Origin: an uncultured Alphaproteobacteria bacterium
GTDB taxonomy: Bacteria; Pseudomonadota; Alphaproteobacteria; RF32; CAG-239
Direction of reading: 5' to 3'
NCBI GenBank assembly: GCA_944391725.1
Contig: CALXUQ010000002.1
Location: forward strand, 3,590-67,589
Length of the DNA: 64,000 bases
The notes under the pieces: generated by a model
What the model saw: only the letters and a program-made list of their open reading frames with translations
Databases searched by the model: none
Told to the model about the DNA's origin: nothing
Shown: positions 834 through 64,000 of the stretch, piece after piece
Numbering within the stretch: position 1 is the first letter of the stretch
How the letters are laid out: every line of letters begins with the position of its first letter
Position numbers and translations under genes: made by a program

Positions 834-909
834 GGGCGCTTAGCTCAGCTGGAAGAGCATCTCGTTTACACCGAGAGGGTCGGGAGTTCGAACCTCTCAG
901 CGCCCACCA
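834..909 (+). tRNA. tRNA-Val (anticodon TAC), CCA encoded
   Basis: The cloverleaf can be drawn by hand. The acceptor is GGGCGCT/AGCGCCC, the D-stem GCTC/GAGC, the anticodon stem TCTCG/CGAGA with loop TTTACAC, the T-arm GGGAG-TTCGAAC-CTCTC, with discriminator A and CCA. Confidence 0.9.
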
Positions 910-913
910 AAAA

Positions 914-941
914 GTCCACCTCAAATGGTGGATTTTTTTTG
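914..941 (+). terminator. rho-independent terminator after tRNA-Val
   Basis: A GTCCACC-tcaaat-GGTGGAT hairpin is followed by T8. Confidence 0.7.
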
Positions 942-954
942 TGCTTGGATTTGG

Positions 955-1186
955 CGAGATGAGGGGTTCGAACTCCCGAGGAAGGGAGTTTGACAACAAA
1001 CTTCGCTTTAGTGAAGTGCAGTTGGAAGGAAGACGTAGTCGACGATCCGAGCAAAGCGAGGACGCGCAGTGCATAGCGCGTGCGCACGACAAGCGAAAGG
1101 CGGACGAGAGTACGCCGGTGAGCCTTGGCTCATGAGCGTCAGTGCAACTCAAGCAGCGCGCAGAGTACACTCTCAGCGCCCACCAA
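955..1186 (+). repeat. tRNA-Val-associated composite repeat: inverted copy of the tRNA-Val T-arm, hairpin, ~100-nt unique segment, 75-nt conserved core, then a 16-nt direct copy of the tRNA-Val 3' end
   Basis: Positions 965-977 (GGTTCGAACTCCC) are the exact reverse complement of tRNA positions 882-894. Positions 984-994 (GGGAGTTTGAC) copy the T-arm 5' strand. Positions 1093-1167 are 95% identical to 58067-58141. Positions 1170-1185 (CTCTCAGCGCCCACCA) repeat the tRNA 3' end (894-909). Confidence 0.75.
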
Positions 1187-1220
1187 AAAGTCCACCTCAA
1201 AGGGTGGATTTTTTTTGTGC
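1187..1220 (+). terminator. second copy of the tRNA-Val terminator hairpin
   Basis: AAAAGTCCACCtcaaagGGTGGATTTTTTTT is a near-identical duplicate of 910-941. Confidence 0.6.
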
Positions 1221-1297
1221 TTGGATTTGGCGAGATGAGAGGTTTGAACTCCCAAGAGGTCGTAGGATTTATTGTGAAAGTTTGGAGTAAATGGGAA

Positions 1298-1545
1298 AAT
1301 TCGAAGATCCCTGGATGTTTTTCTGCGAAAAACGAGGGATGACTTTAAATAATGCTGGTGCAATCGAGAGATGGCCAGCACAGCTGGTGCGCGGCACGAC
1401 AAGTTAAAGGTTGAGAGTTTGTGACCAAGAGCAGAAATGCTACCGATGTGTCGATTGCTTAAATTAATTCGAAGATCCCAGGATGTTTTTCTGCGAAAAA
1501 CGAAGGATGACTTTAAATAATGCTGGCGCAATCGAGGGGTGACCC
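1298..1545 (+). repeat. 168-bp tandem duplication (unit 1 at 1298-1465; unit 2 at 1466-1545, truncated)
   Basis: AATTCGAAGATCCCtGGATGTTTTTCTGCGAAAAACGAgGGATGACTTTAAATAATGCTGGtGCAATCGAG occurs twice with 3 mismatches. Unit 1 continues into a diverged copy of the core (GCGCGGCACGACAAGTTAAAGGTTGAGAGTTTGTGACCAAGAGC). Confidence 0.7.
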
Positions 1546-1554
1546 CTTGATATC

Positions 1555-1586
1555 AAAAAAAACTCCTCAGTTTGAGGAGTTTTTTG
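1555..1586. terminator. bidirectional terminator hairpin (A7-ACTCCTCAgttTGAGGAGT-T6)
   Basis: A perfect 8-bp stem flanked by an A-run and a T-run lies between the repeat region and the convergent gene ending at 1607. Confidence 0.65.
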
Positions 1587-2128: not shown

Positions 2129-4393
2129 ATGACTAAAGAACTTTTGGCTCCGGCCGGCGATATCGAGGCCGGTTATGCGGCTCTTTACTATGGTGCCGAT
2201 GCTGTTTATCTTGGATTGCAGCAGTTTTCGGCACGTGCCACCGCAACAAATTTTGATGAGGCGAATCTGGCAGAGTTTGTGGCTTATGCTCATTCGCTTA
2301 AGCGGAAAGTATATGTGGCGCTCAACACCCTTATTCAGGAATCGGAACTGCAAGATTTAATTAAGAATCTGGAGATTTGTGTTCGTACTCATGTTGATGC
2401 GTTGATTGTGCAAGATTTGGGTGTGATCAGAATCGTGAAAGCCAATTATCCCGAACTGGAACTTCATGCCAGCACGCAAATGGCAGTACATAATAAAGAA
2501 GGGGCTTTAGCTTTGCAAAAAGCCGGATTTAGTCGTGTGGTGTTAGCTCGTGAGCTTACGCTTTCCGAAATTAGGGAAATTGCCGCTATCCCGGGGTTGG
2601 AAACCGAGGCCTTTATTCATGGGGCTTTGTGTTACTCATATAGCGGGTTATGCCTGTTTTCATCACTTGAATATGGCAGAAGTGCCAATCGGGGCAAGTG
2701 TTTATATCCGTGTCGGGCGGAGTTTGGCGGTGAAGACGGCAACAAACACTATTTCTCAATGAAAGATATGGCGCTGGAAGAAAATATTTTAAAAATGCCG
2801 GTGACTTCTCTCAAAATTGAAGGACGTAAAAAAACGGCTCTTTATGTGGCAGCAGTAACCGACTATTATCGCAATATTTTAGACGGGAAGGGGGCTATTC
2901 CAGCAAAAGCCGATAATATTAAGCAGATTTTTGCGCGGCCGTGGTGCGATTTTCATTTTAAGGGGCGCAACAAAAATATTATTGACCGCGAATTTGTGGG
3001 ACATCGTGGGCTTTTGACCGGAAGAATCGAACAAATTGCTAAAAACAAGATTATTTTCAAAACCAAATTTCCAATTGCACGTCATGACGGTATTCAGATT
3101 GATGTGGACGGACAAGAAAAGCCGTTCGGATTTTCCGTTCAGGAAATGCGCATTAATGGTAAAAATGGTTTTGAGGCTAAAGCCGGTGATGTGGTTGAAG
3201 TGCTTATGCCGCCCCAAGCTCCTTTTTTAAGAAAAGGGCAAAATATTTATTTGGCCTCATCCAGCCGTGTGAAGGGTGCATATGACTATACTAAGCCCAA
3301 GCCCGGAGCATTCAAACCACGGCGCAAGGTTGCAGTTGTTGCCGGGGTGGACGAATCTGAGGTATGGGCGCAAGCGGAAGGTCAGAGAGTTTCGTTAAGC
3401 GGAAGTTTTACCACCGCAGATAATCCGCTCAAGACCAAAGAGGCTTTTGAAAAAGCTTTTGCCAAAGGTGGAGATGTCGGAGTTGAACTTATCGACCTTA
3501 CTTTGGAAAATCCGCAAAATTTGTTTGTGCCGGTTTCAATGCTCAATGAACTGCGCCGCCAATTATATGCAAGTTTGCCAGCAGTGCTCTCAACTCCTCG
3601 TGAGTTGCCAGAGGTTACAGCTTGCCGCCGCTCCAGTGCTCCGCAATGGATAGTCAGAACTGACCAAAAAGAAGTTTTGCAAGGTATTAATTGTGATGAG
3701 GTGGCGGAAATTGCCTTTATGTTATCATCAGAATCTACTCCTGATGATTGGAAGCATATTCCTAAAAACAAATTACGTTTTGCTTTGCCGACGGTGGCAC
3801 GAAACCCTAAACTTTGGGCAGAAATTACCGACAAGCTTTTAGCACAAGGTTATCGCAAGTGGGAAATCGGGAACTATTGGGGATTGGAATTTTTGCCGCA
3901 TCAGGGAATTGATTTAAGTTTTGATGCCTCATTATATATGCTAAACTCGCAAGCAATTATGCAGGTCAAAGAAATGGGGGCATCAAGAGTATGCTTATCT
4001 ATAGAAGACAATTTGGAAAACTGGCAAAAATTATCCGCAGTTTCGCCGCTGCCGATAGTCTTTAGCGTATATCAAGATGCGCCGTTATTTACGAGTGCGG
4101 CGTGTATCCGTTCAAATCCTTGCAAGATTTGTCCGCGTGGTACCAAGTGGCTGAAACTTACTCGCGATGGGCAAGAGTATGATGTATTGTCTAAAGACTG
4201 TCAGACAATGTTATTTGCCCGCGAACCATTGTGTTTCGGAGCTCAGATTTCCGAAGTGGCGGCGGATTTTTATCGGGCGGATTTTCTGTATAAGCCCTAT
4301 CAAGCTCAGCAAGTGCGTGAGATTATGTCGGTGCTGAAAAGTGGAAAAGATGTTCCTAACTGTCGTAAAGGCAACTTAAAACGGCGTTTATAA
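2129..4393 (+). CDS. peptidase U32 family protein, long form (YdcP/RlhA-like, with C-terminal extension)
   Basis: MTKELLAPAGDIEAGYAALYYGADAVYLG ... IHGALCYSYSGLCLFS...GRSANRGKCLYPCR matches the U32 signature. An AAGGA RBS precedes the ATG at 2129. Confidence 0.8.
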   Translation: MTKELLAPAGDIEAGYAALYYGADAVYLGLQQFSARATATNFDEANLAEFVAYAHSLKRKVYVALNTLIQESELQDLIKNLEICVRTHVDALIVQDLGVIRIVKANYPELELHASTQMAVHNKEGALALQKAGFSRVVLARELTLSEIREIAAIPGLETEAFIHGALCYSYSGLCLFSSLEYGRSANRGKCLYPCRAEFGGEDGNKHYFSMKDMALEENILKMPVTSLKIEGRKKTALYVAAVTDYYRNILDGKGAIPAKADNIKQIFARPWCDFHFKGRNKNIIDREFVGHRGLLTGRIEQIAKNKIIFKTKFPIARHDGIQIDVDGQEKPFGFSVQEMRINGKNGFEAKAGDVVEVLMPPQAPFLRKGQNIYLASSSRVKGAYDYTKPKPGAFKPRRKVAVVAGVDESEVWAQAEGQRVSLSGSFTTADNPLKTKEAFEKAFAKGGDVGVELIDLTLENPQNLFVPVSMLNELRRQLYASLPAVLSTPRELPEVTACRRSSAPQWIVRTDQKEVLQGINCDEVAEIAFMLSSESTPDDWKHIPKNKLRFALPTVARNPKLWAEITDKLLAQGYRKWEIGNYWGLEFLPHQGIDLSFDASLYMLNSQAIMQVKEMGASRVCLSIEDNLENWQKLSAVSPLPIVFSVYQDAPLFTSAACIRSNPCKICPRGTKWLKLTRDGQEYDVLSKDCQTMLFAREPLCFGAQISEVAADFYRADFLYKPYQAQQVREIMSVLKSGKDVPNCRKGNLKRRL

Positions 4394-10178: not shown

Positions 10179-11987
10179 ATGAAAAAATATTTATTGATGA
10201 GTGTGGCGGCCGTAGCAGTTGTGGCTGCAGGCGGTATCGGGTATTACAGCTACTATTATGATAATACGGGAATTACCAATGTGTTTAAGGCGGCTGAAGA
10301 ATCTGCTCCGAGCAAAGTAAAAAAATATTTGCGAATTTATAATCCTGATTTGAAACAAGCCGATGTTAACGGATATACTCTGATTACCTATGCGGCGGCA
10401 AATAAAGACCCCGAAATGGTTAAGGCTGTGCTTGAGGCCGGAGCGCAGGTGAATGTGGAGGCTAAAGACGGTATTACTCCGCTGATGATGGCAATCTTAA
10501 ATCATAATGCAGAGGCGGTGAAGTTGTTGTTGGCAGCCGGAGCCGATGCTAATTTTGTAAATATGAACGGTTGGTCTCCGCTGGCGTTCGCAGTTTCAAA
10601 TTCGGATAATGCCGAAATTGTAAAATTATTATTGCAACGTAAGGCAGATGTCAGGTTTAAGCTGGAGGGAAAAATTGGTTTGGTCAATTTGGCACTCCAG
10701 ACACAAGCTCCCGCTGAGGTGGTGTCCGAATTGATTGAGGCCGGCGCAAATGTGCAAGAAATGGATAAGGATGGGAATACATTGATTGCAAAAGCCGTTA
10801 TGCTTAAGGCAAATCCTGAGGTTATTAAGTTATTAGCCGAAAACGGAAGTGATGTTAACCAGGCAAACTTGCAAGAGATGACGCCGTTGTTGATGGCTTT
10901 GTTCCAGTCGAGCGGTGAAAAAATGGTGCAGACTTTGATCGAAGCCGGAGCTGATTTGAACACTAATCCCAAAGCTATACTGAGAAATGCGGTGACTAAA
11001 AATAAAGATCCGAAGGTGTTGGATGTTTTGGCTAAAGCTAATATGAAGTTGCGTCTTGATGATGATGATTTTTCTTTGGTGGCTGAGACGGTACAAATTC
11101 CCAACCAAGAGCAAATGCTGGCAAAAGTCTTGAAGTATGATGATATTATCAATCGTAAGGATTCAAAAGGACGAACTCCGGTTTTTGCGGCAATGATACC
11201 GGGACAAAGTTTTGATGTGCTCAATATGCTAAACAAAAACGGAGCCAATTTTGATGCCAAGGATAATAATGGCCAAACCGTGTTGATGGCGGCAATCAAA
11301 AATAATGCAGGCAAAGATGTCGTGCAATATTTGTTGGATCGTAAGGTCGATATTTTTGCTACGGATAATGAAGGAAATACGGCTTTGGATTATGCCGCTT
11401 CCAGTATTCATGATCAAGATATGGCTCTCTTGCTGCTAGATGCTTATGTCAAAGACGGAAAACACCAAGCCGAAATTAATCATGCGATGTTGCAGGCAGC
11501 CTTAAATCCGAATAGCAAAATATTGGAATATTTTGCTAATAAAGGCGGCAAAATTGATTTTGCTCAACAGGAAATTCCGCTGTTGGTGATTGCGGCAGGA
11601 AAAAATAATATGGTGGAAAATGTGCGGCAAATGCTAAAACTTGGTGCCGATGTCAATATGATAACGCCGGATAAAATTACTCCGTTACATATGGCGGCAG
11701 CTTCAAATCCAAATCCGGATATGGCTAAAGTTCTGGTAGAGGCTGGAGCAAATGTTAATGCACAAGACCGTTCCGGTCTGACACCGCTGATGTTGACGGT
11801 GTTGTACAATCCCAACGGTGATGCCGTAGCGGAGGTTTTGTTGGAGGCTAAGGCTAATCCTAAATTGAGAGATTCGACCGGGAGGACTTATTTTGAAATG
11901 TTAAAAGAACGGCAGGTCGCTCAAGCTAGAGAACAGACAAAAGTTCCGGAAAACGTGGGTGAGGTAACTCCAATCCCTGAGGACTAA
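10179..11987 (+). CDS. ankyrin-repeat protein with N-terminal signal peptide/TM anchor (~15 ANK repeats)
   Basis: It begins MKKYLLMSVAAVAVVAAGGIGYY. Then ~33-aa units recur through most of the 602 aa, e.g. NGYTLITYAAANKDPEMVKAVLEAGAQVN and DGITPLMMAILNHNAEAVKLLLAAGADAN. Confidence 0.8.
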   Translation: MKKYLLMSVAAVAVVAAGGIGYYSYYYDNTGITNVFKAAEESAPSKVKKYLRIYNPDLKQADVNGYTLITYAAANKDPEMVKAVLEAGAQVNVEAKDGITPLMMAILNHNAEAVKLLLAAGADANFVNMNGWSPLAFAVSNSDNAEIVKLLLQRKADVRFKLEGKIGLVNLALQTQAPAEVVSELIEAGANVQEMDKDGNTLIAKAVMLKANPEVIKLLAENGSDVNQANLQEMTPLLMALFQSSGEKMVQTLIEAGADLNTNPKAILRNAVTKNKDPKVLDVLAKANMKLRLDDDDFSLVAETVQIPNQEQMLAKVLKYDDIINRKDSKGRTPVFAAMIPGQSFDVLNMLNKNGANFDAKDNNGQTVLMAAIKNNAGKDVVQYLLDRKVDIFATDNEGNTALDYAASSIHDQDMALLLLDAYVKDGKHQAEINHAMLQAALNPNSKILEYFANKGGKIDFAQQEIPLLVIAAGKNNMVENVRQMLKLGADVNMITPDKITPLHMAAASNPNPDMAKVLVEAGANVNAQDRSGLTPLMLTVLYNPNGDAVAEVLLEAKANPKLRDSTGRTYFEMLKERQVAQAREQTKVPENVGEVTPIPED

Positions 11988-15847: not shown

Positions 15848-18800
15848 ATGGAAGACATTATAATTGAAGAAAGACCGGCTACTCCTGTTTCGACCAAAGA
15901 ACCTGCTAAAACAACAGAGACTAAGGTAAAAATTAAAGTCAAAAAACAAGGTCCCGGTGTGTTGAGCTATTTGGCTGATTGGTTTAACAAGTCTTTGATT
16001 GTGTTCTTGCTTGCGGCAATCAATTTGGTTTTGTTTTTGAGCGTGGGAAACTTAAATGCTTTTCGCGGCGCTCCATGGGAATTGGTGCCGGAAGTGTCTT
16101 ATGTCGTGCTCGGACTTTTTGTGCTATCTTGGTTGCTGATGTTTGCCGCATCTTTGGCACGGTTTATTCAAAATTTGGTTGCTGCCGCGTTGGTGGGTTT
16201 TTGGTTTGTGGTGTTGGTGAACCAGTTTGCCTTGTTTGATGCAGATTCTTTTCTGTATAATTTGGCCGTTAGTTGGTTTGGTGAGGCGGCGGCCGTTCCT
16301 TTTGCGAACTATTCACAGTGGATAGCGGCGGCGCTGATATTTTTGGTATCGTGGGTGTTTTTTACTTTTGCAGCACACAGAAAACAATTTTATTTGGTGG
16401 TGATTTTGGCCGCAATTGCCTTGATTTCGGGGGCGAAACTCTATAATCAGCGCAATAATATGTCGGATTTTGAGGAGGTATATGCCGATAAGGTGATTAC
16501 CAATAATAAACAAGGTAATAATTTTGTGTTTATTGCAGTGCCAAATTTGCCTTCTTACCGATATTTGGAAAGTATCAGCCCTAAATATAAAATAGCGAAC
16601 AAGGCTCTTAAAGCAATGTTGGGGTTGTATACAAGAAATGGCTTTGTGTTGTTTCCCAATGCTTATACTTTGGGACAAAACGAGGCGGAAAATTTGGCGC
16701 AGAGCTTAAACCTTTCGATTGATAAAGATTTGCTAAGTCGTCCGGCAAAGTATGCCGAAAATTGGGATTTTGACAGCTTGGCCGCAAAAAGAACAGAACT
16801 GAAGTCAAGCCAGATGTTGGCGACTTTTGAGAAAAACGGATATGTGCGCAAGGTGTTTGAGGATAATAGTGTCGAGCTGTGCTTTGTGGACGCTAAACCG
16901 GTGGCTAATGCTTGCTATCGACGCAAAATGGTGCCTATGGCTCTGGAGGCCGAAAAGTTTTCTTTGCGGCAACGGATTATGTTGTTGGTGGGGCAGTGGC
17001 TCGGAAGTATGGATATGTTTACTCTGAACCGGCCGCTGTATAATGTCTTGAAGTCGTTTAATGTGGCTGATGTTCCGTTTATCGGACAGGATTATGCAGA
17101 GCAGAAAGCTTTGGGCAGTGTGGAAACATTGGACAAAGTGGCGGAAGATATTGCGCAAGGAAAAGGCAATCGGGCATATGTGGTGTGGATGAATTTGCCG
17201 GGGCAAGGCTTTGTATATGATGAATTTTGTCAGCTTAAGCCGGTGGATAAATGGATTGTGAAAGGCGGAACGGAAAAAGACGAAGATAAGCAAATTAATG
17301 CTTATTTTGAACAGACGGCTTGCTTGTTTGGCAAACTCAATGATTTTATGCGGCAACTTAAGGAAAATAAGGTCGATAAAAATACTGTAGTGATTTTGCA
17401 AGGAGTGAGCGGTTTGGAAATTGCCGGATTAAAGCCGGCTGATAAATTTGAGGCCGAGAATATGGTTACAATGGCGGTTCGTGACCCCAAACATACGAAG
17501 TTTACGCTTGATAACCGTTTTTGCAGTGCCCCGAAAATTGTGCGTCAGTATTTGTTCAAGAAAGATGAGTGCCGCGAGCAAGAGGGCTTAAATCTGGATG
17601 AGAATGTTAAAAATGAAATTGTTGAAAACATTAAAAAACAAAATGTTATCTCTAATAATTCATTAAATACATTAACTGATGCCAATGAGTGGTTTAGAAA
17701 CTGGTTGCGGGCTAATTATCCGGATATGGTGATTCCGATTGAAATGCCGGTGATTGAGGAAAAAGAAGTGGCCGACAGCAAACTGCAAAATCCGCAACAA
17801 GCTAAGGAACAATTGGTTAAGCAGGAAACTAAAACAATTGCCGAAGCTGCTAAAGAAGAAGCTGAAAAAGTAAAAGCCATTAAGCTGCGGACCGATGAAA
17901 CCTCAGCTCCGGTTGTGAGTGAGGATAATAAGTCAGTTAGTGATGAAAATGCACTTTCACAACCACAAAATTTGTTGGAAAACGCTGGGATTAAGAAAGT
18001 TCCGGCACCGCAGGAGAAATCGTTAGCAACAGGTAAAACTGCTAATGATATGACCGATAAGTCGGATACTGAAAATCAGCTCGACAACACGACTGAACCT
18101 CAGGTACAAACTGAGCCGGAGGAAAAAACGGTCAAGGGCGATGAACTGGAAACATCAAATGGGGCAGAAGTACAGAATAAGCCCGAAAATGCCGATGTCG
18201 AGATGCAAAAGTCGACTGAAACACAAGCCCAAATTAAAGAGGCATCTCAACCTAACAATCTGGTAATCGGGGAGGGGCAAAAACCATTAGATCAGCAAAA
18301 TGATAAGTCGGCTGAGGAAAATCAACAGGCAGAAACCGAATCTAAGTCAGCTGTGGTTAATCAAGAACCGGAGGTAAGTGAACCCAATCGGGTTGAGGTT
18401 AGTCAGAAGCCAGAAGAAAACACGCAAAATATTGTTGGGAGTGAAGTTGCTCCGAAGGAGGCAAACACTATCACTAATGATAAGCCAGCAAATGTAGAAT
18501 CTAAAACTGCGCCAGCGGAGGAAATTGCAACCGACGAAAAAGTGGTGATTATTCCGCAAGGTGATGATAAGTCTGATAAAATTATTATTAAAATAGGTAC
18601 TGAAGAAGGCAATTTGCCGCAGGAGCAAGAAACAACACCTGCAGCCAAGTTGGAAAATTTGACGGCAGAAATCATTGCCAAAGCAGATGAAACTAAGGAT
18701 AAAGTTCAAAACGAGATCGCGGATTTGTCGGAGATTAAGGCTCCGCAGGTACCGCTTAAACCGGAAAACTTTGTGCCAGAAATTCAACGGCCTAAGCCGG

Positions 18801-18910
18801 AAATGTTAATTCCACAGCCGGTGCCACAACAAGATGAAATTGGTGAAAATGTGCTGTTTGAGCGCAATGATTCTGCACTGCCTGAACCTGATGAAACAAT
18901 ACAAAACTAA
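15848..18910 (+). CDS. large polytopic membrane protein (~5 N-terminal TM helices, a ~450-aa soluble domain, and a ~350-aa acidic E/K/Q/P-rich low-complexity tail)
   Basis: The ORF is 1020 aa. The TM block spans residues ~50-200. The architecture resembles EptA/LtaS-type enzymes (TM plus periplasmic domain), but no sulfatase catalytic motif was recognised. Confidence 0.55.
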   Translation: MEDIIIEERPATPVSTKEPAKTTETKVKIKVKKQGPGVLSYLADWFNKSLIVFLLAAINLVLFLSVGNLNAFRGAPWELVPEVSYVVLGLFVLSWLLMFAASLARFIQNLVAAALVGFWFVVLVNQFALFDADSFLYNLAVSWFGEAAAVPFANYSQWIAAALIFLVSWVFFTFAAHRKQFYLVVILAAIALISGAKLYNQRNNMSDFEEVYADKVITNNKQGNNFVFIAVPNLPSYRYLESISPKYKIANKALKAMLGLYTRNGFVLFPNAYTLGQNEAENLAQSLNLSIDKDLLSRPAKYAENWDFDSLAAKRTELKSSQMLATFEKNGYVRKVFEDNSVELCFVDAKPVANACYRRKMVPMALEAEKFSLRQRIMLLVGQWLGSMDMFTLNRPLYNVLKSFNVADVPFIGQDYAEQKALGSVETLDKVAEDIAQGKGNRAYVVWMNLPGQGFVYDEFCQLKPVDKWIVKGGTEKDEDKQINAYFEQTACLFGKLNDFMRQLKENKVDKNTVVILQGVSGLEIAGLKPADKFEAENMVTMAVRDPKHTKFTLDNRFCSAPKIVRQYLFKKDECREQEGLNLDENVKNEIVENIKKQNVISNNSLNTLTDANEWFRNWLRANYPDMVIPIEMPVIEEKEVADSKLQNPQQAKEQLVKQETKTIAEAAKEEAEKVKAIKLRTDETSAPVVSEDNKSVSDENALSQPQNLLENAGIKKVPAPQEKSLATGKTANDMTDKSDTENQLDNTTEPQVQTEPEEKTVKGDELETSNGAEVQNKPENADVEMQKSTETQAQIKEASQPNNLVIGEGQKPLDQQNDKSAEENQQAETESKSAVVNQEPEVSEPNRVEVSQKPEENTQNIVGSEVAPKEANTITNDKPANVESKTAPAEEIATDEKVVIIPQGDDKSDKIIIKIGTEEGNLPQEQETTPAAKLENLTAEIIAKADETKDKVQNEIADLSEIKAPQVPLKPENFVPEIQRPKPEMLIPQPVPQQDEIGENVLFERNDSALPEPDETIQN

Positions 18911-38377: not shown

Positions 38378-38453
38378 GGGTGCATAGCTCAGTTGGTAGA
38401 GCAACTGACTCTTAATCAGTGGGTCTGGGGTTCGAACCCCCATGCGCCTACCA
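38378..38453 (+). tRNA. tRNA-Lys (anticodon CTT), CCA encoded
   Basis: The acceptor is GGGTGCA/TGCGCCT (with G:U pairs), the D-arm GCTC-AGTTGGTA-GAGC, the anticodon stem ACTGA/TCAGT with loop CTCTTAA, and the T-arm TGGGG-TTCGAAC-CCCCA. Confidence 0.85.
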
Positions 38454-38492: not shown

Positions 38493-38699
38493 ATATCCAT
38501 ATTAAGGGGTTCTCACCCTAAAGGGTTCTTCTGGCTCGTAAGTGTTTTTACAAACACTAACTCGCTGCGGTCACTTGGTTTGTAACATTCGTTTCGCGTC
38601 GCAGGCAGCGCCTGAGGCATCAGTTAGTTGCTTTACGTATATGCCTTGTATCCGCGATGCTTTCTATGTGCCGGTTGCTTGAATTAATTTGTAGCTTCC

Positions 38700-38760
38700 T
38701 TCACGATTGCTCCACAATCGTGTGATGACTTTAAATAAGACTAAAGCAATCGAGAACAGC
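38700..38760 (+). repeat. third copy of the GATGACTTTAAATAA...GCAATCGAGA motif, preceded by the hairpin CACGATTGctccaCAATCGTG
   Basis: GATGACTTTAAATAA (38723-38737) and GCAATCGAGA (38745-38754) are shared with 1338-1366 and 1506-1534. Confidence 0.6.
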
Positions 38761-57889: not shown

Positions 57890-57979
57890 GGAGAGGTGGC
57901 AGAGTGGTTTAATGCAGCGGTCTTGAAAACCGTCGAGGGGGCGACCCCTCCCAGAGTTCGAATCTCTGCCTCTCCGCCA
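57890..57979 (+). tRNA. tRNA-Ser (anticodon TGA), long variable arm, CCA encoded
   Basis: The acceptor is GGAGAGG/CCTCTCC, the anticodon loop CTTGAAA, the long extra arm CGAGGGGGCGACCCCTC and the T-arm CAGAG-TTCGAAT-CTCTG. Confidence 0.85.
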
Positions 57980-57983
57980 TTAT

Positions 57984-58017
57984 AAAAAAGACGACCTTTA
58001 GGGTCGTTTTTTTTATA
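57984..58017 (+). terminator. terminator after tRNA-Ser (AAAAAAGACGACCtttaGGGTCGTTTTTTTT)
   Basis: A perfect hairpin is followed by T8. Confidence 0.7.
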
Positions 58018-58027
58018 ATTAGAGATA

Positions 58028-58152
58028 TGGATTGATTCGAACTCTGGGAGAAGAGTTCGACTACCAGCGAAAGGCGGACGAGAGTACGCCGGTGAGCTTT
58101 AAGCTCATGAGCGCCAGTGCAACTCAAGCAGCGCGCAGAGTAATCTCTGCCT
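58028..58152 (+). repeat. tRNA-Ser-associated composite repeat: inverted T-arm copy, hairpin, 75-nt core, then an 11-nt direct copy of the tRNA-Ser T-loop/acceptor strand
   Basis: Positions 58036-58049 (ATTCGAACTCTGGG) are the exact reverse complement of tRNA-Ser CCCAGAGTTCGAAT. Positions 58067-58141 are 95% identical to 1093-1167. Positions 58142-58152 (ATCTCTGCCTC) copy tRNA positions 57961-57971. Confidence 0.75.
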
Positions 58153-58175
58153 CAACTATAATGCAAATTGCTCAC

Positions 58176-61800: not shown

Positions 61801-62310
61801 TTAGTCCCAGACAATGTTGTCCAATTCTTCTACAGTTGTGGCTGCTTCAACCTGAGTTTTGAGTGTGGTTGCTTTTTCGTGGCAGCGGTTAGACCATTCT
61901 GCTAAGGCCACGACTAAGCCCATCAGTTCTTGCGCGGTCAAGTCAATCGTTGAGTTATCCTGACAAGTCCAGGTAATGGTTGGTGTTTCTTCGCTCATGA
62001 CAGATAGTTGCATGGCTTGAGCCGCACAGGTCATGCGGATACAAGATATTTCATCACTGTCAAATACCTTGCCCATATACTCAAAACCACCCTGCTCTGC
62101 CGCATCGCGCGCCTTGTTAATCTCGGCTCGTTTAGCAAGTTTTAGTTCCTCAAGCGGTTGCGTGGGACAAGTACTTTCAAAATAGTACCTGCCGTCATAG
62201 CCTTGCACGATTTTTTCTTCGGCTTGAAGAGCATTTTCATCATACTTATATCCGGCAAAGCTTGAAATTGTGCCATCATCATTAGCTATATAATAAATTT
62301 CTTCATTCAT
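61801..62310 (-). CDS. phage tail-fibre assembly/chaperone-like protein (DUF4376-type)
   Basis: It lies immediately downstream of a tail-fibre gene. Its central region KLAKRAEINKARDAAEQGGFEYMGKVFDSD matches the pattern I associate with DUF4376/Tfa proteins. Confidence 0.5.
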   Translation of the reverse strand: MNEEIYYIANDDGTISSFAGYKYDENALQAEEKIVQGYDGRYYFESTCPTQPLEELKLAKRAEINKARDAAEQGGFEYMGKVFDSDEISCIRMTCAAQAMQLSVMSEETPTITWTCQDNSTIDLTAQELMGLVVALAEWSNRCHEKATTLKTQVEAATTVEELDNIVWD

Positions 62311-62322
62311 GTGTTTAACTCC

Positions 62323-64000
62323 TTATACATAGGGATATAAAATGACGGTTGAAACGCTGGTAAACTCTATTTTATCGCCAGATTTTACAGGATAAGCCTC
62401 GGATGACTTTGTACCATCGAGCCCAGTCCATGTAGCTACCGTGACGGAATTAATTTTCAAATTGCCATTGTGAAAACCGCCGCCAGTGTTTTCATTTATC
62501 ACCAGCAATCCGTTTGTTGATGCGGTTGCCCCAGAGCTTATGGTTATTCCGGCAGAATAATTTACTTGTGCACCATAGTTTCTGACCCATTGGGTGGTAG
62601 CAATCTGAGTAGATTTATCTGTAGCAACCGGCGGTTTGATGCTATATGCATAACCGCTATTATCAATTCTTATTCCTCCAATGGTGGAACCGTTCTGCAC
62701 ATTTGCAAATGATGCAGAATTATCCCCATTATAATATTGTATTTTCGCATTGTTGTTTGTGTTTGCAGGGTCAACACATTGCATAATACTTACACCGTTA
62801 GGATTGCCAACAGTAATATTGCTAGTAAAAATCTTTTCGCCTTCAATGGTTTCATTGCCTGTTTTGTGGACTACCTCTTGGTCATCAGCAAGTTTAACCG
62901 GTAATTTAGGATTAAACGAAGTCACTCGACCGGTTGAGTCTGCGTTTAATGTACCAAATAACAAAAATTGTGCTGTTTTTATTCCGTTAAAATAGTTGTA
63001 ATTTTCTTGATTATTATGATAATAATTTTGACTATAAGTTAATGTTAATACGCTAGTTCCAGTAAAGTAAGCCAAGATTCCGTTATCTAAAGATACACCA
63101 TTGTTTATGGTTGTTACTTTCGTTGTCATAAACTTAGCATTATTTAAACTACCATCAGTATTTCTGCCGCTTGGTATAAGCCCTTCGACACCTGGTAATG
63201 AAAATATTGTTCTGCCGATATAGCCAAAGCCATTGAAGACTTGGTCGATTGAGGAAAATCCCGTGCCATTGGTGCTGAAAAGACCTAAGGGAAATGAAAT
63301 ATTACCACTTGTCCAATTTGAACCACCATCAGTAGTCCTTTTAATTAGATTATTTTTGGTATCATACCAGTACAAAAAGTTAGTACCAGATGGAGCGTCT
63401 GTACCTGAAAATACTTGAGTGGATAAAATTCTTTCCAATCTACCATCAATGTAAAATACAAATAAATTATTGTAATTTGTTGTATCTGTTAAGGATATAT
63501 CTGAATTAACTAAGATTTCCTTGAACACACCTGCACCATTTGGTATATACACCTTACTTCCTGCTTTTAACGTCAGCGTACCATCAACAAGCTCCAACAT
63601 AATGTCTTGAGGTATCTTAGTGATACAGTTGGTGATTTGGGTTTCGTTTAATGTGCCGTCAGTCACCGCTTTAGCATTTTCGGCCCAATATTTAGCACTT
63701 CCACTGGGCTGTTCTTGGATTGTACCAACCGCCCACTTGTGGGCTTCTTCTTTGCTAGTGGTAGCATTTTGTTCATGATTTTGAACTAAATTTTCTTTGT
63801 TGATTACATTTTGCTCAGCAGCCAAAACGGTTGTTTGGGTGTCTATCATCAGCTGTTCTAAATCGTCATACGCCAAATTTGAGTTGCGCAGAGAGATGCC
63901 GTTCTCGGCCCAGACAATGGCTTTGCCGATTTCGGGCTCGGGAAGGTTAACGCTTTGAGCGCTGCCTGAATATGGCGGAAAACTTACACTACGTCCGATT
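62323..64000 (-). CDS. phage-type tail fibre protein, 5'-truncated by the window edge (the listed ORF starts at an in-frame TTG, and the reading frame stays open to position 64000)
   Basis: The N-terminal region ...NATTSKEEAHKWAVGTIQEQPSGSAKYWAENAKA resembles the conserved fibre-shaft start of P2/Mu-type fibres. A Gly/Ser/Thr/Asn-rich beta-rich C-terminus follows. There is no in-frame stop between 63876 and 64000. Confidence 0.6.
   Translation of the reverse strand, partial: IGRSVSFPPYSGSAQSVNLPEPEIGKAIVWAENGISLRNSNLAYDDLEQLMIDTQTTVLAAEQNVINKENLVQNHEQNATTSKEEAHKWAVGTIQEQPSGSAKYWAENAKAVTDGTLNETQITNCITKIPQDIMLELVDGTLTLKAGSKVYIPNGAGVFKEILVNSDISLTDTTNYNNLFVFYIDGRLERILSTQVFSGTDAPSGTNFLYWYDTKNNLIKRTTDGGSNWTSGNISFPLGLFSTNGTGFSSIDQVFNGFGYIGRTIFSLPGVEGLIPSGRNTDGSLNNAKFMTTKVTTINNGVSLDNGILAYFTGTSVLTLTYSQNYYHNNQENYNYFNGIKTAQFLLFGTLNADSTGRVTSFNPKLPVKLADDQEVVHKTGNETIEGEKIFTSNITVGNPNGVSIMQCVDPANTNNNAKIQYYNGDNSASFANVQNGSTIGGIRIDNSGYAYSIKPPVATDKSTQIATTQWVRNYGAQVNYSAGITISSGATASTNGLLVINENTGGGFHNGNLKINSVTVATWTGLDGTKSSEAYPVKSGDKIEFTSVSTVILYPYV

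What the first reader, a model, noticed from the sequence alone, without database searches (positions are those of the whole stretch)
834..1186. tRNA-Val 3' half is copied downstream, split by a 75-nt conserved core and preceded by an exact inverted copy of the tRNA T-arm
Seen directly in the sequence: 70 nt after tRNA-Val, positions 965-977 (GGTTCGAACTCCC) are the perfect reverse complement of tRNA positions 882-894 (T-stem plus T-loop). This segment immediately hairpins with 984-994 (GGGAGTTTGAC), which is a direct copy of the T-arm 5' strand. After ~175 nt of inserted sequence the tRNA resumes exactly at CTCTCAGCGCCCACCA (1170-1185, T-stem 3' strand, acceptor and CCA). The tRNA's own terminator hairpin is then duplicated (1187-1220). 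The result looks like an attR-style partial tRNA copy whose T-loop is interrupted by an insertion. The same architecture recurs at tRNA-Ser (see the finding at 57890-58152), so it is not a one-off scar. Possible explanations are a small T-loop-targeting mobile element, decayed integrase att sites that were later colonised by a palindromic repeat, or a structured trailer RNA that folds back on the tRNA.
Basis: seen in the sequence. Interest (0 to 1): 0.75.

Follow-up and report, generated by a model that had tools for sequence, protein, structure and literature searches.

The report
Structured module splitting tRNA-tail hairpin copies
Just after tRNA-Val (and tRNA-Ser), this gut alphaproteobacterium carries a hairpin copy of the tRNA's own T-arm and 3' end, split exactly at T-loop position 58/59 by a conserved ~82-nt folded module; this is one copy of an apparently undescribed, gene-less element family found next to at least 15 tRNA species in related gut bacteria.

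Summary
Each unit reads: tRNA, terminator, degenerate inverted copy of tRNA 61-76, arm A (reverse complement of 47-60), a 4-6-nt loop, arm A' (49-58), an ~82-nt module "E" (CTACC...GCGCAGAGTA), then B (59-76 with CCA) and a terminator.

About 110 units were found, all in uncultured gut Alphaproteobacteria. Of 89 with enough upstream sequence, 79 had the tRNA within 750 nt. E folds as a three-way junction, and every pair of its three helices shows double-sided changes. Wobble pairs fit only the tRNA-sense strand.

There is no Rfam family, no phage or plasmid copy, and no conserved neighbouring gene. The window encodes no recombinase, transposase or reverse transcriptase.

Near-identical strains lack the unit or carry one to three tandem copies. 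In one genome, E at tRNA-Lys and tRNA-Met differs by one base, with identity ending exactly at E's ends.

The ~175-nt "insert" at tRNA-Val is composite: an intact E core plus a decayed E fragment.

Best reading (about 45%): a new kind of non-autonomous, structure-dependent repeat or mobile element specialised on tRNA T-loops. A tRNA-mimicking RNA or a small intron-like RNA is not excluded.

The parts
834..909 (+). tRNA-Val(TAC), intact; parent of the arms
   Evidence: ARAGORN; Rfam tRNA 64.9 bits
909..940 (+). Terminator t1 (A-tract, 12-bp stem, T-tract); first part of the 87-bp direct repeat 894-980
941..962 (+). Xb': degenerate inverted copy of tRNA 61-76
   Evidence: read from sequence; family comparison
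963..977 (+). Arm A: reverse complement of the tRNA T-arm (47-60)
978..983 (+). Hairpin loop (GAGGAA)
984..993 (+). Arm A': direct copy of tRNA 49-58 (one C-to-T change, giving U.G with arm A)
994..1091 (+). Extra segment replacing the CTACC start of E; contains a decayed partial E copy. Absent from the simple 182-bp units of related strains.
1092..1167 (+). E core: closing helix P1, hairpin hp1 with a GNRA-type loop, hairpin hp2, and the conserved tail GTGCAACTCAAGC..GCGCAGAGTA
   Evidence: (91.8 bits)
1170..1185 (+). B: direct copy of tRNA 61-76 including CCA
1185..1256 (+). Terminator t2 plus a second inverted T-arm copy (1236-1253); second copy of the 87-bp direct repeat (1170-1256)
1257..1560 (+). 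Older or other modules in the same tRNA tail: 168-bp tandem repeat (1298-1376 / 1466-1544) and a degenerate E-like start at 1391-1420
57890..57979 (+). tRNA-Ser(TGA), parent of the second unit
58036..58060 (+). Ser unit hairpin: arm A 58036-58047, loop, arm A' 58052-58060
58061..58142 (+). Ser unit E module, complete (CTACC...GAGTA, 82 nt)
   Evidence: (120.9 bits)
58143..58153 (+). Ser unit B, cut to 11 nt (tRNA 59-69); no CCA and no terminator

Best explanation
The locus holds one copy (a second sits at tRNA-Ser) of a gene-less, structure-defined repeat element that lives in the 3' flank of tRNA genes. A unit is a long imperfect hairpin built from an inverted and a direct copy of the neighbouring tRNA's last ~30 nt. 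A conserved ~82-nt three-way-junction module (E) sits exactly between tRNA positions 58 and 59 of the direct copy, that is, 3' of the T-loop pentanucleotide TTCGA. There is no target duplication and there are no terminal inverted repeats.

I propose that it is a selfish, non-autonomous element whose active form is the folded tRNA-sense single strand, DNA or RNA. A factor encoded elsewhere in the genome would recognise that fold.

Shown:
- the architecture, and its link to at least 15 tRNA species;
- the strand-specific, covarying fold;
- gain, loss and amplification of whole units across their 60-90-bp direct repeats;
- near-identity of E between different tRNA loci of one genome, with sharp borders at E's ends;
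- absence of any enzyme encoded alongside.

Inferred:
- E is copied into T-loop-like sites, by IS200/IS605-like or attC/CTX-like single-strand chemistry or through an RNA intermediate.
- Only insertions in dispensable tRNA 3' copies survive.
- Arms are kept matched to the local tRNA by gene conversion.
For: - Family and context: 48 genome and 70 metagenome loci hit the E tail pattern, all true hits from gut Alphaproteobacteria. Of 89 units with enough upstream sequence, 70 have the tRNA directly upstream and 9 a little further upstream (within 750 nt: tandem units or an insertion between). At least five of the other 10 show an island inserted between tRNA and unit.
- Arm matching: A' matches tRNA 49-58 at 9-10 of 10 positions in 66 of 70 units. 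B matches 59-76 at 18 of 18 in 46 of 70.
- tRNAs in the same loci that carry no E have no inverted T-arm copy nearby.
- Fold: 87% of cells pair, against 29-38% when partners are slid. All 18 pairs of P1, hp1 and hp2 change on both sides.
- Strand: wobble pairs occur only on the + strand (U.G 28 and G.U 15; 28 G.U against 2 A.C).
- Dispensable and unstable: strains about 99% identical in this intergenic region (97% in the flanking U32 peptidase) lack the unit (L051, L058), carry a 182-bp unit (L057, L059, L029) or the 276-bp unit (window). One to three tandem units occur at tRNA-Pro. Decayed, truncated and nested copies exist.
- E at tRNA-Lys and tRNA-Met in one genome differs by 1 of 83 nt, while the flanks are unrelated.
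- Some arms still carry another tRNA's sequence (L043, L045).
- No conserved neighbouring ORF. No recombinase, transposase or reverse transcriptase in the 64-kb window.
- No promoter is predicted between the two terminators.
- The + strand has positive GC skew, so it is the lagging-strand template.
Against: - No mobilising enzyme has been identified, and no E-bearing autonomous element was seen.
- No excised-circle junction and no precisely E-less hairpin was found. The searches were E-based, so E-less hairpins could have been missed.
- Near-identity of E between loci could come from gene conversion limited to the 82-nt homology, rather than from transposition.
- Unit gain and loss is explained by ordinary recombination between the direct repeats.
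- GNRA-type loops, tandem G.A pairs and a 30-nt invariant tail look more like a functional RNA than a transposon end.
- How arms specific for a new tRNA first arise is unexplained.
- Some chimeric units may be assembly artefacts.
Confidence: 0.45

Rival explanations
1. Host-used structured RNA. Read-through transcripts from the tRNA gene yield a ~150-nt RNA in which the Xb' segment and B form an acceptor-plus-T-stem minihelix ending in NCCA. RNase P and the tRNA 3'-end enzymes would process it. The E domain replaces T-loop nucleotides 59/60, a position where T-loop motifs tolerate insertions. It would act as a tRNA-specific mimic, decoy or regulator.
For: - Strong covariation, GNRA-type loops and tandem G.A pairs in E.
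- Wobble pairs fit only the tRNA-sense strand.
- B keeps CCA and is followed by a tRNA-like terminator in most units.
- In minimum-free-energy folds, arm A pairs with A' in 43 of 51 units, and B pairs with the 5' segment in 19 of 51.
- In the best-kept cases (Pro, Arg, Val, Ser), Xb' keeps acceptor complementarity, with G.U pairs and a recurrent 1-nt deletion that disfavours the competing T-arm-like fold.
Against: - The unit sits behind a strong intrinsic terminator with no predicted promoter.
- It is absent from near-identical strains and varies from 0 to 3 copies.
- B is truncated or mismatched in about a third of units, including the window's Ser unit.
- The Xb'-B helix is lost in Met and other units without compensation.
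Confidence: 0.25
2. Small intron-like or ribozyme-like mobile RNA. E is excised from A'-E-B and reinserts into T-loops at the RNA level. Arm A would act as a guide holding the 5' exon, comparable to the hairpin 5' exons used by group IIC introns. DNA copies would arise by reverse transcription and recombination.
For: - Exact borders at a universally conserved RNA site, with no target duplication.
- An RNA-like conserved fold.
- A hairpin sits directly 5' of the insertion point in nearly all units.
- A wobble pair lies next to the junction (U.G at tRNA position 57 in 28 of 46 units).
Against: - At 82 nt it is far smaller than any known self-splicing intron.
- No match to any Rfam ribozyme or intron, even at E-value up to 10.
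- E is never seen inside a complete, functional tRNA gene. The only case without the hairpin is a 5'-truncated tRNA-Lys fragment (L041, L092).
- No reverse transcriptase in the window.
Confidence: 0.1
3. Relics of integrase-mediated island integration at the tRNA 3' end (attL/attR), later colonised by a palindromic repeat.
For: - The direct repeat of the tRNA 3' end is what an attL/attR pair looks like.
- T-loop and 3'-end integration of real islands does occur in this clade (L004, L048, L067, L086, L108).
Against: - No integrase at any of more than 100 loci.
- The DNA between the repeats is a constant ~130-nt structured unit, not decayed cargo.
- The same covarying module occurs at at least 15 tRNA species.
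- Genuine islands sit between the tRNA and the unit, so the unit is a separate entity.
Confidence: 0.07
4. Stand-alone guide RNA for an RNA-guided enzyme encoded elsewhere (omega-RNA-like or bridge-RNA-like). E would be the scaffold, B an 18-nt 3' guide to the tRNA gene next to a TTCGA motif, and arm A a second guide to the opposite strand.
For: The layout is a conserved scaffold followed by a variable 16-18-nt segment that matches a genomic site beside a fixed pentanucleotide. Arm A and B are complementary to opposite DNA strands on either side of position 58/59.
Against: - The variable segments are contiguous flanks of an insertion into a tRNA copy, not embedded guides.
- No TnpB, IscB, IS110 or Cas gene lies near any unit or in the window.
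- An active nuclease with this guide would cut the essential tRNA gene next door.
Confidence: 0.05

Closest known systems
IS200/IS605-family elements and their ORF-less derivatives (PATEs)
   Same: Insertion immediately 3' of a fixed 4-5-nt sequence (here TTCGA). No target duplication and no terminal inverted repeats. Strand-specific hairpins, with the active strand being the lagging-strand template.
   Different: E is only ~82 nt and folds as a single three-way junction, not as two similar subterminal hairpins. No tnpA- or tnpB-bearing partner with these ends was found. The target always lies inside a hairpin made of tRNA-derived arms.
REP/BIME arrays and REPIN doublets
   Same: Gene-less palindromic units after terminators. 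Copies alternate in orientation (tRNA 3' end, inverted copy, direct copy). Tandem amplification and clade-specific families.
   Different: The repeated palindrome is the neighbouring tRNA's own 3' end, so it differs at every locus. A constant structured module is embedded in it. No GTAG motif, and no RAYT gene could be linked.
Folded single-strand recombination sites (integron attC, CTX-phage attP)
   Same: An imperfect hairpin mimics the double-stranded target. Structure is conserved more than arm sequence, with strand-specific mismatches. The junction topology is inverted arm, loop, direct arm, then target right half. Arrays have the newest unit next to the entry site.
   Different: No R''/R' core motifs, no integron integrase and no dif-like site. 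An 82-nt module sits at the junction. The cargo is only a replacement tRNA 3' end and terminator.
tRNA-integrating genomic islands (T-loop and 3'-end sublocations)
   Same: Intact tRNA followed by a displaced partial 3' copy. The boundary lies in the T-loop.
   Different: No integrase and no cargo. The inverted arm and the covarying module have no counterpart in island att sites.
Group IIC introns and archaeal T-loop tRNA introns
   Same: An insertion at a precise point just after a hairpin, or within the T-loop (58/59, 59/60), of a tRNA sequence, with exact borders.
   Different: No group II domains and no bulge-helix-bulge motif could be established. The interrupted sequence is a partial pseudo-copy, not the working tRNA gene.

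Membership tests
tRNA-island att site (attL/attR relic) | Direct repeat of the tRNA 3' segment flanking the inserted DNA | tested here: met
   87-bp repeat 894-980 / 1170-1256
tRNA-island att site (attL/attR relic) | Tyrosine or serine integrase gene, or island cargo, between or beside the repeats | tested here: not met
   Only 100-190 bp of conserved non-coding unit lies between the repeats. No integrase in the window or in neighbours of more than 100 loci.
MITE | Terminal inverted repeats and target-site duplication | tested here: not met
   E runs CTACC...GAGTA, sharing at most 3 nt between ends. Its flanks are tRNA positions 58 and 59 with nothing duplicated.
IS200/IS605 PATE | Insertion 3' of a fixed tetra- or pentanucleotide without duplication | tested here: met
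   E follows T(T/C)GA in nearly all units; variants are TCCGA, GTCGA and TGCGA.
IS200/IS605 PATE | Two similar subterminal hairpins recognised by TnpA | tested here: inconclusive
   Hairpins lie 13 nt from the left end and 12 nt from the right end, but they are dissimilar and are enclosed by a common closing helix.
IS200/IS605 PATE | Autonomous partner with the same ends carrying tnpA or tnpB | tested here: not met
   In every hit where the CTAC start is present it lies within about 95 nt of the E tail; hits lacking it are chance matches, contig-end cuts or 5'-truncated copies, none showing an ORF-bearing E. No Y1 transposase or TnpB in the window. Whole genomes could not be searched.
REP/BIME/REPIN | Inverted doublets forming a hairpin, in alternating arrays after terminators | tested here: met
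   Order is tRNA 47-76, terminator, inverted copy, loop, direct copy, terminator, inverted copy.
REP/BIME/REPIN | Family-wide conserved REP sequence with GTAG and a cognate RAYT gene | tested here: not met
   Arms differ with each tRNA. No RAYT in the window. Genome-wide presence was not testable.
Integron attC / CALIN | R''-L''...L'-R' hairpin with RYYYAAC / GTTRRRY cores | tested here: not met
   The arms are T-arm sequence (GGTTCGA), and the C at the first R position violates GTTRRRY (read).
Integron attC / CALIN | Structure conserved more than sequence, with strand-specific unpaired bases | tested here: met
   (recurrent 1-nt deletion at the complement of position 65 in Pro, Arg and Val units).
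Group I / group II intron or known small ribozyme | Match to the catalytic-core consensus | tested here: not met
   No Rfam 15 hit at gathering score or at E-value up to 10. The transient CUGAUGAG plus CGAAA resemblance to hammerheads is not conserved across units.
Group I / group II intron or known small ribozyme | Interrupts the functional copy of the host gene | tested here: not met
   E is always in a partial 3' copy, and the full tRNA upstream is uninterrupted.
Retron ncRNA | Adjacent reverse transcriptase; msr-msd order with flanking inverted repeats | tested here: not met
   No reverse transcriptase. The retron-like order exists only on the minus strand, where the helices would carry A.C mismatches.
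TnpB/IscB omega-RNA or IS110 bridge RNA | Encoded next to its effector gene | tested here: not met
   No conserved neighbouring ORF.
Any described RNA family (Rfam 15) | Covariance-model match | tested here: not met
   Only the three tRNAs reach threshold in the 64-kb window.

The most novel reading that the evidence does not exclude
E is a new class of very small catalytic or protein-assisted mobile RNA: an ~82-nt three-way-junction element that excises from and reinserts into the tRNA T-loop at 58/59, using a tRNA-complementary hairpin arm as its guide. Equally novel would be a tRNA-specific minihelix mimic that bacteria keep beside individual tRNA genes to sense or protect that tRNA.
Probability: 0.15. 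Interest if true: 0.92.

Novelty: categorically new. Interest (0 to 1): 0.72.

Why it matters
tRNA genes are classic landing sites for large islands that carry their own integrase. Here a tiny, gene-less, strongly structured module occupies one exact phosphodiester of the T-loop, inside hairpins built from the neighbouring tRNA's own sequence, at at least 15 tRNA species across a poorly known order of gut bacteria.

If it is a mobile element, it defines a new way of targeting and safely parasitising tRNA genes, because the working gene is always left intact. It would also point to an unknown trans-acting enzyme that reads a folded single strand.

If it is an RNA, it is a new tRNA-mimic class or a minimal intron-like element.

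Either way, it explains recurrent assembly breaks, copy-number variation and chimeric contigs at tRNA loci in these metagenome-assembled genomes. It also gives a compact, well-defined fold that can be tested directly.

Tried and rejected
- **Rfam:** gathering-score scan of the whole window, and permissive scans of all three tRNA tails. Only tRNAs and spurious long-hairpin miRNA-type hits appeared.
- **Phage and plasmid collections, IMG/VR:** the only hit, MT837473 ("Bacteriophage sp.", unverified), is another bacterial-type tRNA-Met unit. One IMG/VR 18-mer hit lies in a coding region and is chance. A second IMG/VR pattern gave nothing.
- **Conserved neighbouring proteins:** ORFs of at least 120 aa over 8 kb, and of at least 35 aa within 1.5 kb. 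Only synteny-level sharing and the spurious translation of E itself were found.
- **Pfam on 56 window ORFs plus three L004 island ORFs:** housekeeping genes only, apart from phage-tail-like proteins at the far end of the window.
- **Hammerhead idea** (CUGAUGAG with CGAAA in some units): dropped, because the motifs are by-products of hp2 and Ser/Arg arm sequences and are not conserved.
- **tmRNA, T-box, retron and a short ORF ending at the E/B junction:** each considered, and each fails on missing parts or inconsistency between units.
- **L007 against L031 (tRNA-Gly) as an empty/filled pair:** flanks are not homologous, so the comparison is uninformative.
- **Head-to-tail E junction** (GCGCAGAGTACTAC) in all held loci: none found.
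- **Five literature searches:** none found a description of such an element. The library is incomplete.
- **Within-genome against between-genome E identity:** mixed result. Several E subfamilies coexist per genome, so no simple concerted-evolution signal emerges.
Full report
**1. The observation**

ARAGORN and Rfam find three tRNAs in the window: Val 834-909, Lys 38378-38453 and Ser 57890-57979.
- 965-977 is the exact reverse complement of 882-894. The inverted repeat runs to 20 nt at 95%.
- 984-993 repeats tRNA positions 49-58 with one C-to-T change.
- CTCTCAGCGCCCACCA recurs at 1170-1185.
- The duplicated block is an 87-nt direct repeat (894-980 / 1170-1256, 95%) that includes the terminator and a second inverted T-arm copy.
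- The 75-nt core recurs after tRNA-Ser with 72 of 76 aligned positions identical. A 25-mer from it occurs twice, against zero matches in 100 shuffles.

**2. Anatomy**

I compared the two window copies with about 110 further copies. In tRNA numbering, a unit reads as follows:
- the tRNA, then a terminator (t);
- a degenerate inverted copy of 61-76 (Xb');
- arm A, the reverse complement of 47-60;
- a 4-6-nt loop;
- arm A', a direct copy of 49-58 ending TTCGA or TTTGA;
- module E, about 82 nt, running CTACC/CTACA...GTGCAACTCAAGCnnnGCGCAGAGTA;
- B, a direct copy of 59-76 with CCA;
- a second terminator, often nearly identical to the first.

So E sits exactly between T-loop positions 58 and 59 of a partial tRNA copy. 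Nothing is duplicated at its borders.

In the window's Ser unit E is complete (58061-58142), but B is cut to 11 nt. In the Val unit the CTACC start is replaced by ~97 nt (994-1091) that aligns to the 5' and middle part of E. This segment is therefore a decayed second copy. Related strains carry the simple 182-bp form of the unit.

**3. Distribution**

- A tail pattern scanned over one genome per species gave 48 loci. Apart from three chance or doubtful hits, all come from uncultured gut Alphaproteobacteria (CAG:495, Candidatus Scatocola and relatives), with several copies per genome.
- A slightly looser pattern found 70 metagenome loci. The true hits are again gut-derived.
- Nothing was found in IMG/VR or among plasmids. 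The single "phage" record (MT837473, unverified) is an ordinary tRNA-Met unit on a bacterial-type contig.
- Of 89 units with enough upstream sequence, 70 have the parent tRNA directly upstream and 9 have it further upstream within 750 nt (tandem units or an insertion between). The other 10 have no intact tRNA within 750 nt. In at least five of these (L004, L048, L067, L086, L108) an island has inserted between tRNA and unit.
- The parent tRNAs are Ser(CGA, TGA, GGA), Arg(CCG, TCT, CCT), Pro(GGG, CGG, TGG), Lys, Met, Val, Gly, Thr and Gln.
- A' equals tRNA 49-58 at 9-10 of 10 positions in 66 of 70 units. B equals 59-76 at 18 of 18 in 46 of 70.
- Thirteen tRNAs without E in the same loci show no inverted T-arm copy downstream. 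The inverted arm therefore belongs to the unit, not to tRNA terminators in general.
- A covariance model built from 46 units finds the two window copies (120.9 and 91.8 bits). It also finds divergent subfamilies at further tRNAs, and a few truncated or displaced copies.

**4. Structure**

On a 46-sequence alignment I tested a three-way junction consisting of:
- a closing helix P1;
- hairpin hp1, 7-8 bp with a GNRA-type loop;
- hairpin hp2, 5-7 bp.

With this fold, 87% of cells are paired, against 29-38% when the partners are slid by 1-3 columns. All 18 pairs of these three helices change on both sides. Examples are GGCGG/ACGCC, GCGAT/ATCGC and GGCAC/GTGCC in hp1, and TGAGC/GCTCA, TCAGC/GCTGA, TCGGC/GCCGA and TTTTGCC/GGCAAAA in hp2.

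P1 alternates between Watson-Crick versions (GCAAU/AUUGC, GGACU/AGUCC) and a version with tandem G.A pairs (GCGAA/UGAGC). Among near-identical strains the hp1 loop varies only within GNRA (GAGA, GGAA, GUAA).

Wobble pairs occur only in the tRNA-sense orientation:
- U.G at 28 units and G.U at 15 units in the A/A' helix;
- 28 G.U against 2 A.C across arm A.

The folded strand is therefore the + strand, as RNA or as single-stranded DNA.

In minimum-free-energy folds, A/A' forms in 43 of 51 units, and B pairs with the Xb' segment in 19 of 51. Where Xb' is well preserved (Pro, Arg(TCT), Val, Ser(CGA)), it keeps the acceptor complement but carries a recurrent 1-nt deletion and mismatch opposite positions 64-65. 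In Met and some other units Xb' is degenerate.

The invariant 3' tail cannot be judged for covariation, because the search patterns fixed it.

**5. Dynamics**

The window's strain has close relatives, about 99% identical in this intergenic region and 97% in the flanking U32 peptidase. They differ precisely by the unit.
- L051 and L058 have tRNA-Val, the terminator and the inverted arm, but no A'-E-B.
- L057, L059 and L029 have one simple unit.
- The window (and L056) has the 276-bp version.

The indel is bounded by the 87-bp direct repeat. Ordinary recombination can therefore delete or add units, and the "empty" alleles are most simply deletions.

Other observations on dynamics:
- tRNA-Pro(GGG) carries one, two or three tandem units in different samples.
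- In genome CAKQKH, E at tRNA-Lys (L011) and at tRNA-Met (L026) differs at 1 of 83 positions, while everything outside CTACC...GAGTA is unrelated. Several E subfamilies can coexist in one genome.
- Some arms still match a different tRNA from the one next door: L043 arm A is of the Ser(CGA) type beside tRNA-Ser(GGA), and B in L045 and L027 is foreign.
- The Pro(GGG) and Arg(TCT) units share loop and arm details.
- Together these suggest that units move between tRNAs with similar T-arms and are then partly converted to the local sequence.
- Chimeric units (L028 unit 2, L091) may be real rearrangements or assembly artefacts.

**6. What is absent**

- No protein is shared by the neighbourhoods beyond local synteny.
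- Pfam annotation of 56 ORFs of the 64-kb window shows housekeeping genes (Rnf complex, ABC transporters, cell-wall enzymes and the like). There is no integrase, transposase, reverse transcriptase, TnpB or Cas protein.
- No sigma-70-like promoter is predicted between the tRNA terminator and the unit. The unit is enclosed by two strong bidirectional terminators.
- The + strand has positive GC skew throughout (+0.11). The folded strand is therefore the lagging-strand template. This is expected anyway for a tRNA-co-oriented element.

**7. Interpretation**

The unit is dispensable and copy-number-variable. It decays, nests and is rearranged, and it lies in a transcriptionally sheltered pocket. These are the marks of a selfish repeat rather than a housekeeping RNA. 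Its conserved, strand-specific fold shows that a folded single strand is what selection sees.

My best explanation (about 45%) is a non-autonomous element specialised on tRNA T-loops and mobilised or copied by a factor encoded elsewhere.
- For E alone, the chemistry that fits best is that of IS200/IS605-type elements: insertion 3' of a fixed pentanucleotide, no duplication, no inverted ends, hairpins on one strand.
- For the whole unit, the topology (inverted arm, loop, direct arm, junction, displaced target half, newest unit next to the tRNA) is what folded single-strand recombination at integron attC or CTX-phage sites produces.
- Neither membership can be claimed, because defining features fail: no partner IS and dissimilar hairpins in the first case, no core motifs and no integrase in the second.

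Three points are unexplained or ambiguous:
- how arms for a new tRNA arise in the first place;
- E's near-identity between loci, which gene conversion confined to the 82-nt homology would also produce;
- unit gain and loss, which needs only homologous recombination.

Rivals:
- A host RNA that mimics the acceptor/T minihelix with E in the T-loop (about 25%). This is favoured by the RNA-like motifs and the retained CCA. It is disfavoured by the lack of a promoter, the unit's dispensability and frequent damage to B.
- A miniature intron-like RNA (about 10%).
- Integrase att relics (about 7%).
- A stand-alone guide RNA (about 5%).

**8. Novelty**

Rfam 15 has no matching family, five literature searches found nothing comparable, and every membership test against known element classes fails on at least one defining feature. 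I therefore rate it as a new kind of element. Once its enzyme is known, it may turn out to be a distant functional analogue of hairpin-dependent single-strand elements.

Noticed in passing
window 38500-38760; also window 1254-1560; L008 about 4000-4350 (minus strand): A second conserved tRNA-tail module. About 95 nt (CGCAGGCAGCGCCTGAGGCATCAGTTAGTTGCTTT...GTGCCGGTT) after tRNA-Lys is nearly identical to sequence after tRNA-Gly in a related genome. A 3' motif GATGACTTTAAATAA..GCAATCGAG occurs three times in the window (1338, 1506, 38724). It has no Rfam hit and shows a weak resemblance to the E tail.
   Followed up: partly
window 1298-1376 / 1466-1544: A 168-bp tandem duplication (92% identical copies) in the tRNA-Val tail is single-copy in the near-identical strain L051. 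This is a second indel polymorphism in the same intergenic region.
   Followed up: partly
L048 3857-3876, L067 404-423, L086 801-820; L108 about 10000; L004 530-4130: Genuine genomic islands sit between a tRNA and its E unit. One is a conserved island end (TTTCGTATGCTCAATACCGT...ACACCGCCA) at the extreme 3' end of tRNA-Ser in three genomes. Another has a right junction that keeps tRNA 59-76. A third is a 3.5-kb island at tRNA-Gln encoding an SF1 helicase-like protein.
   Followed up: partly
window 61801-63849 (minus strand): Two ORFs with phage tail or baseplate-type domains (DUF4376, BppL_N) lie about 4 kb downstream of tRNA-Ser, whose unit has a truncated B. This may be the edge of a prophage or island running off the window.
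   Followed up: no
L020 2700-2950 and the second tandem unit: A further ~235-nt insertion lies inside B (after ATCCC) and is repeated in both tandem units. The tRNA 3' copies seem to attract several kinds of small insertion.
   Followed up: no
L041 7104-7239, L092 about 2900: E sits inside a 5'-truncated tRNA-Lys fragment (positions 27-58 | E | 59-72) without the hairpin arm, at the end of a methyltransferase-like ORF. This could arise by deletion between the tRNA's own 49-58 and A'.
   Followed up: partly
window 1-64000: The + strand has GC skew of +0.02 to +0.19 in every 8-kb block, although 61% of coding bases are on the minus strand. The window also holds a 602-aa ankyrin-repeat protein (10179-11987) and a 1020-aa ORF with no Pfam match (15848-18910).
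   Followed up: no
MT837473.1 (L002): The GenBank record labelled "Bacteriophage sp." (unverified, 6.8 kb) carries a tRNA-Met with a complete E unit like those of bacterial MAGs. It is probably a bacterial contig.
   Followed up: partly
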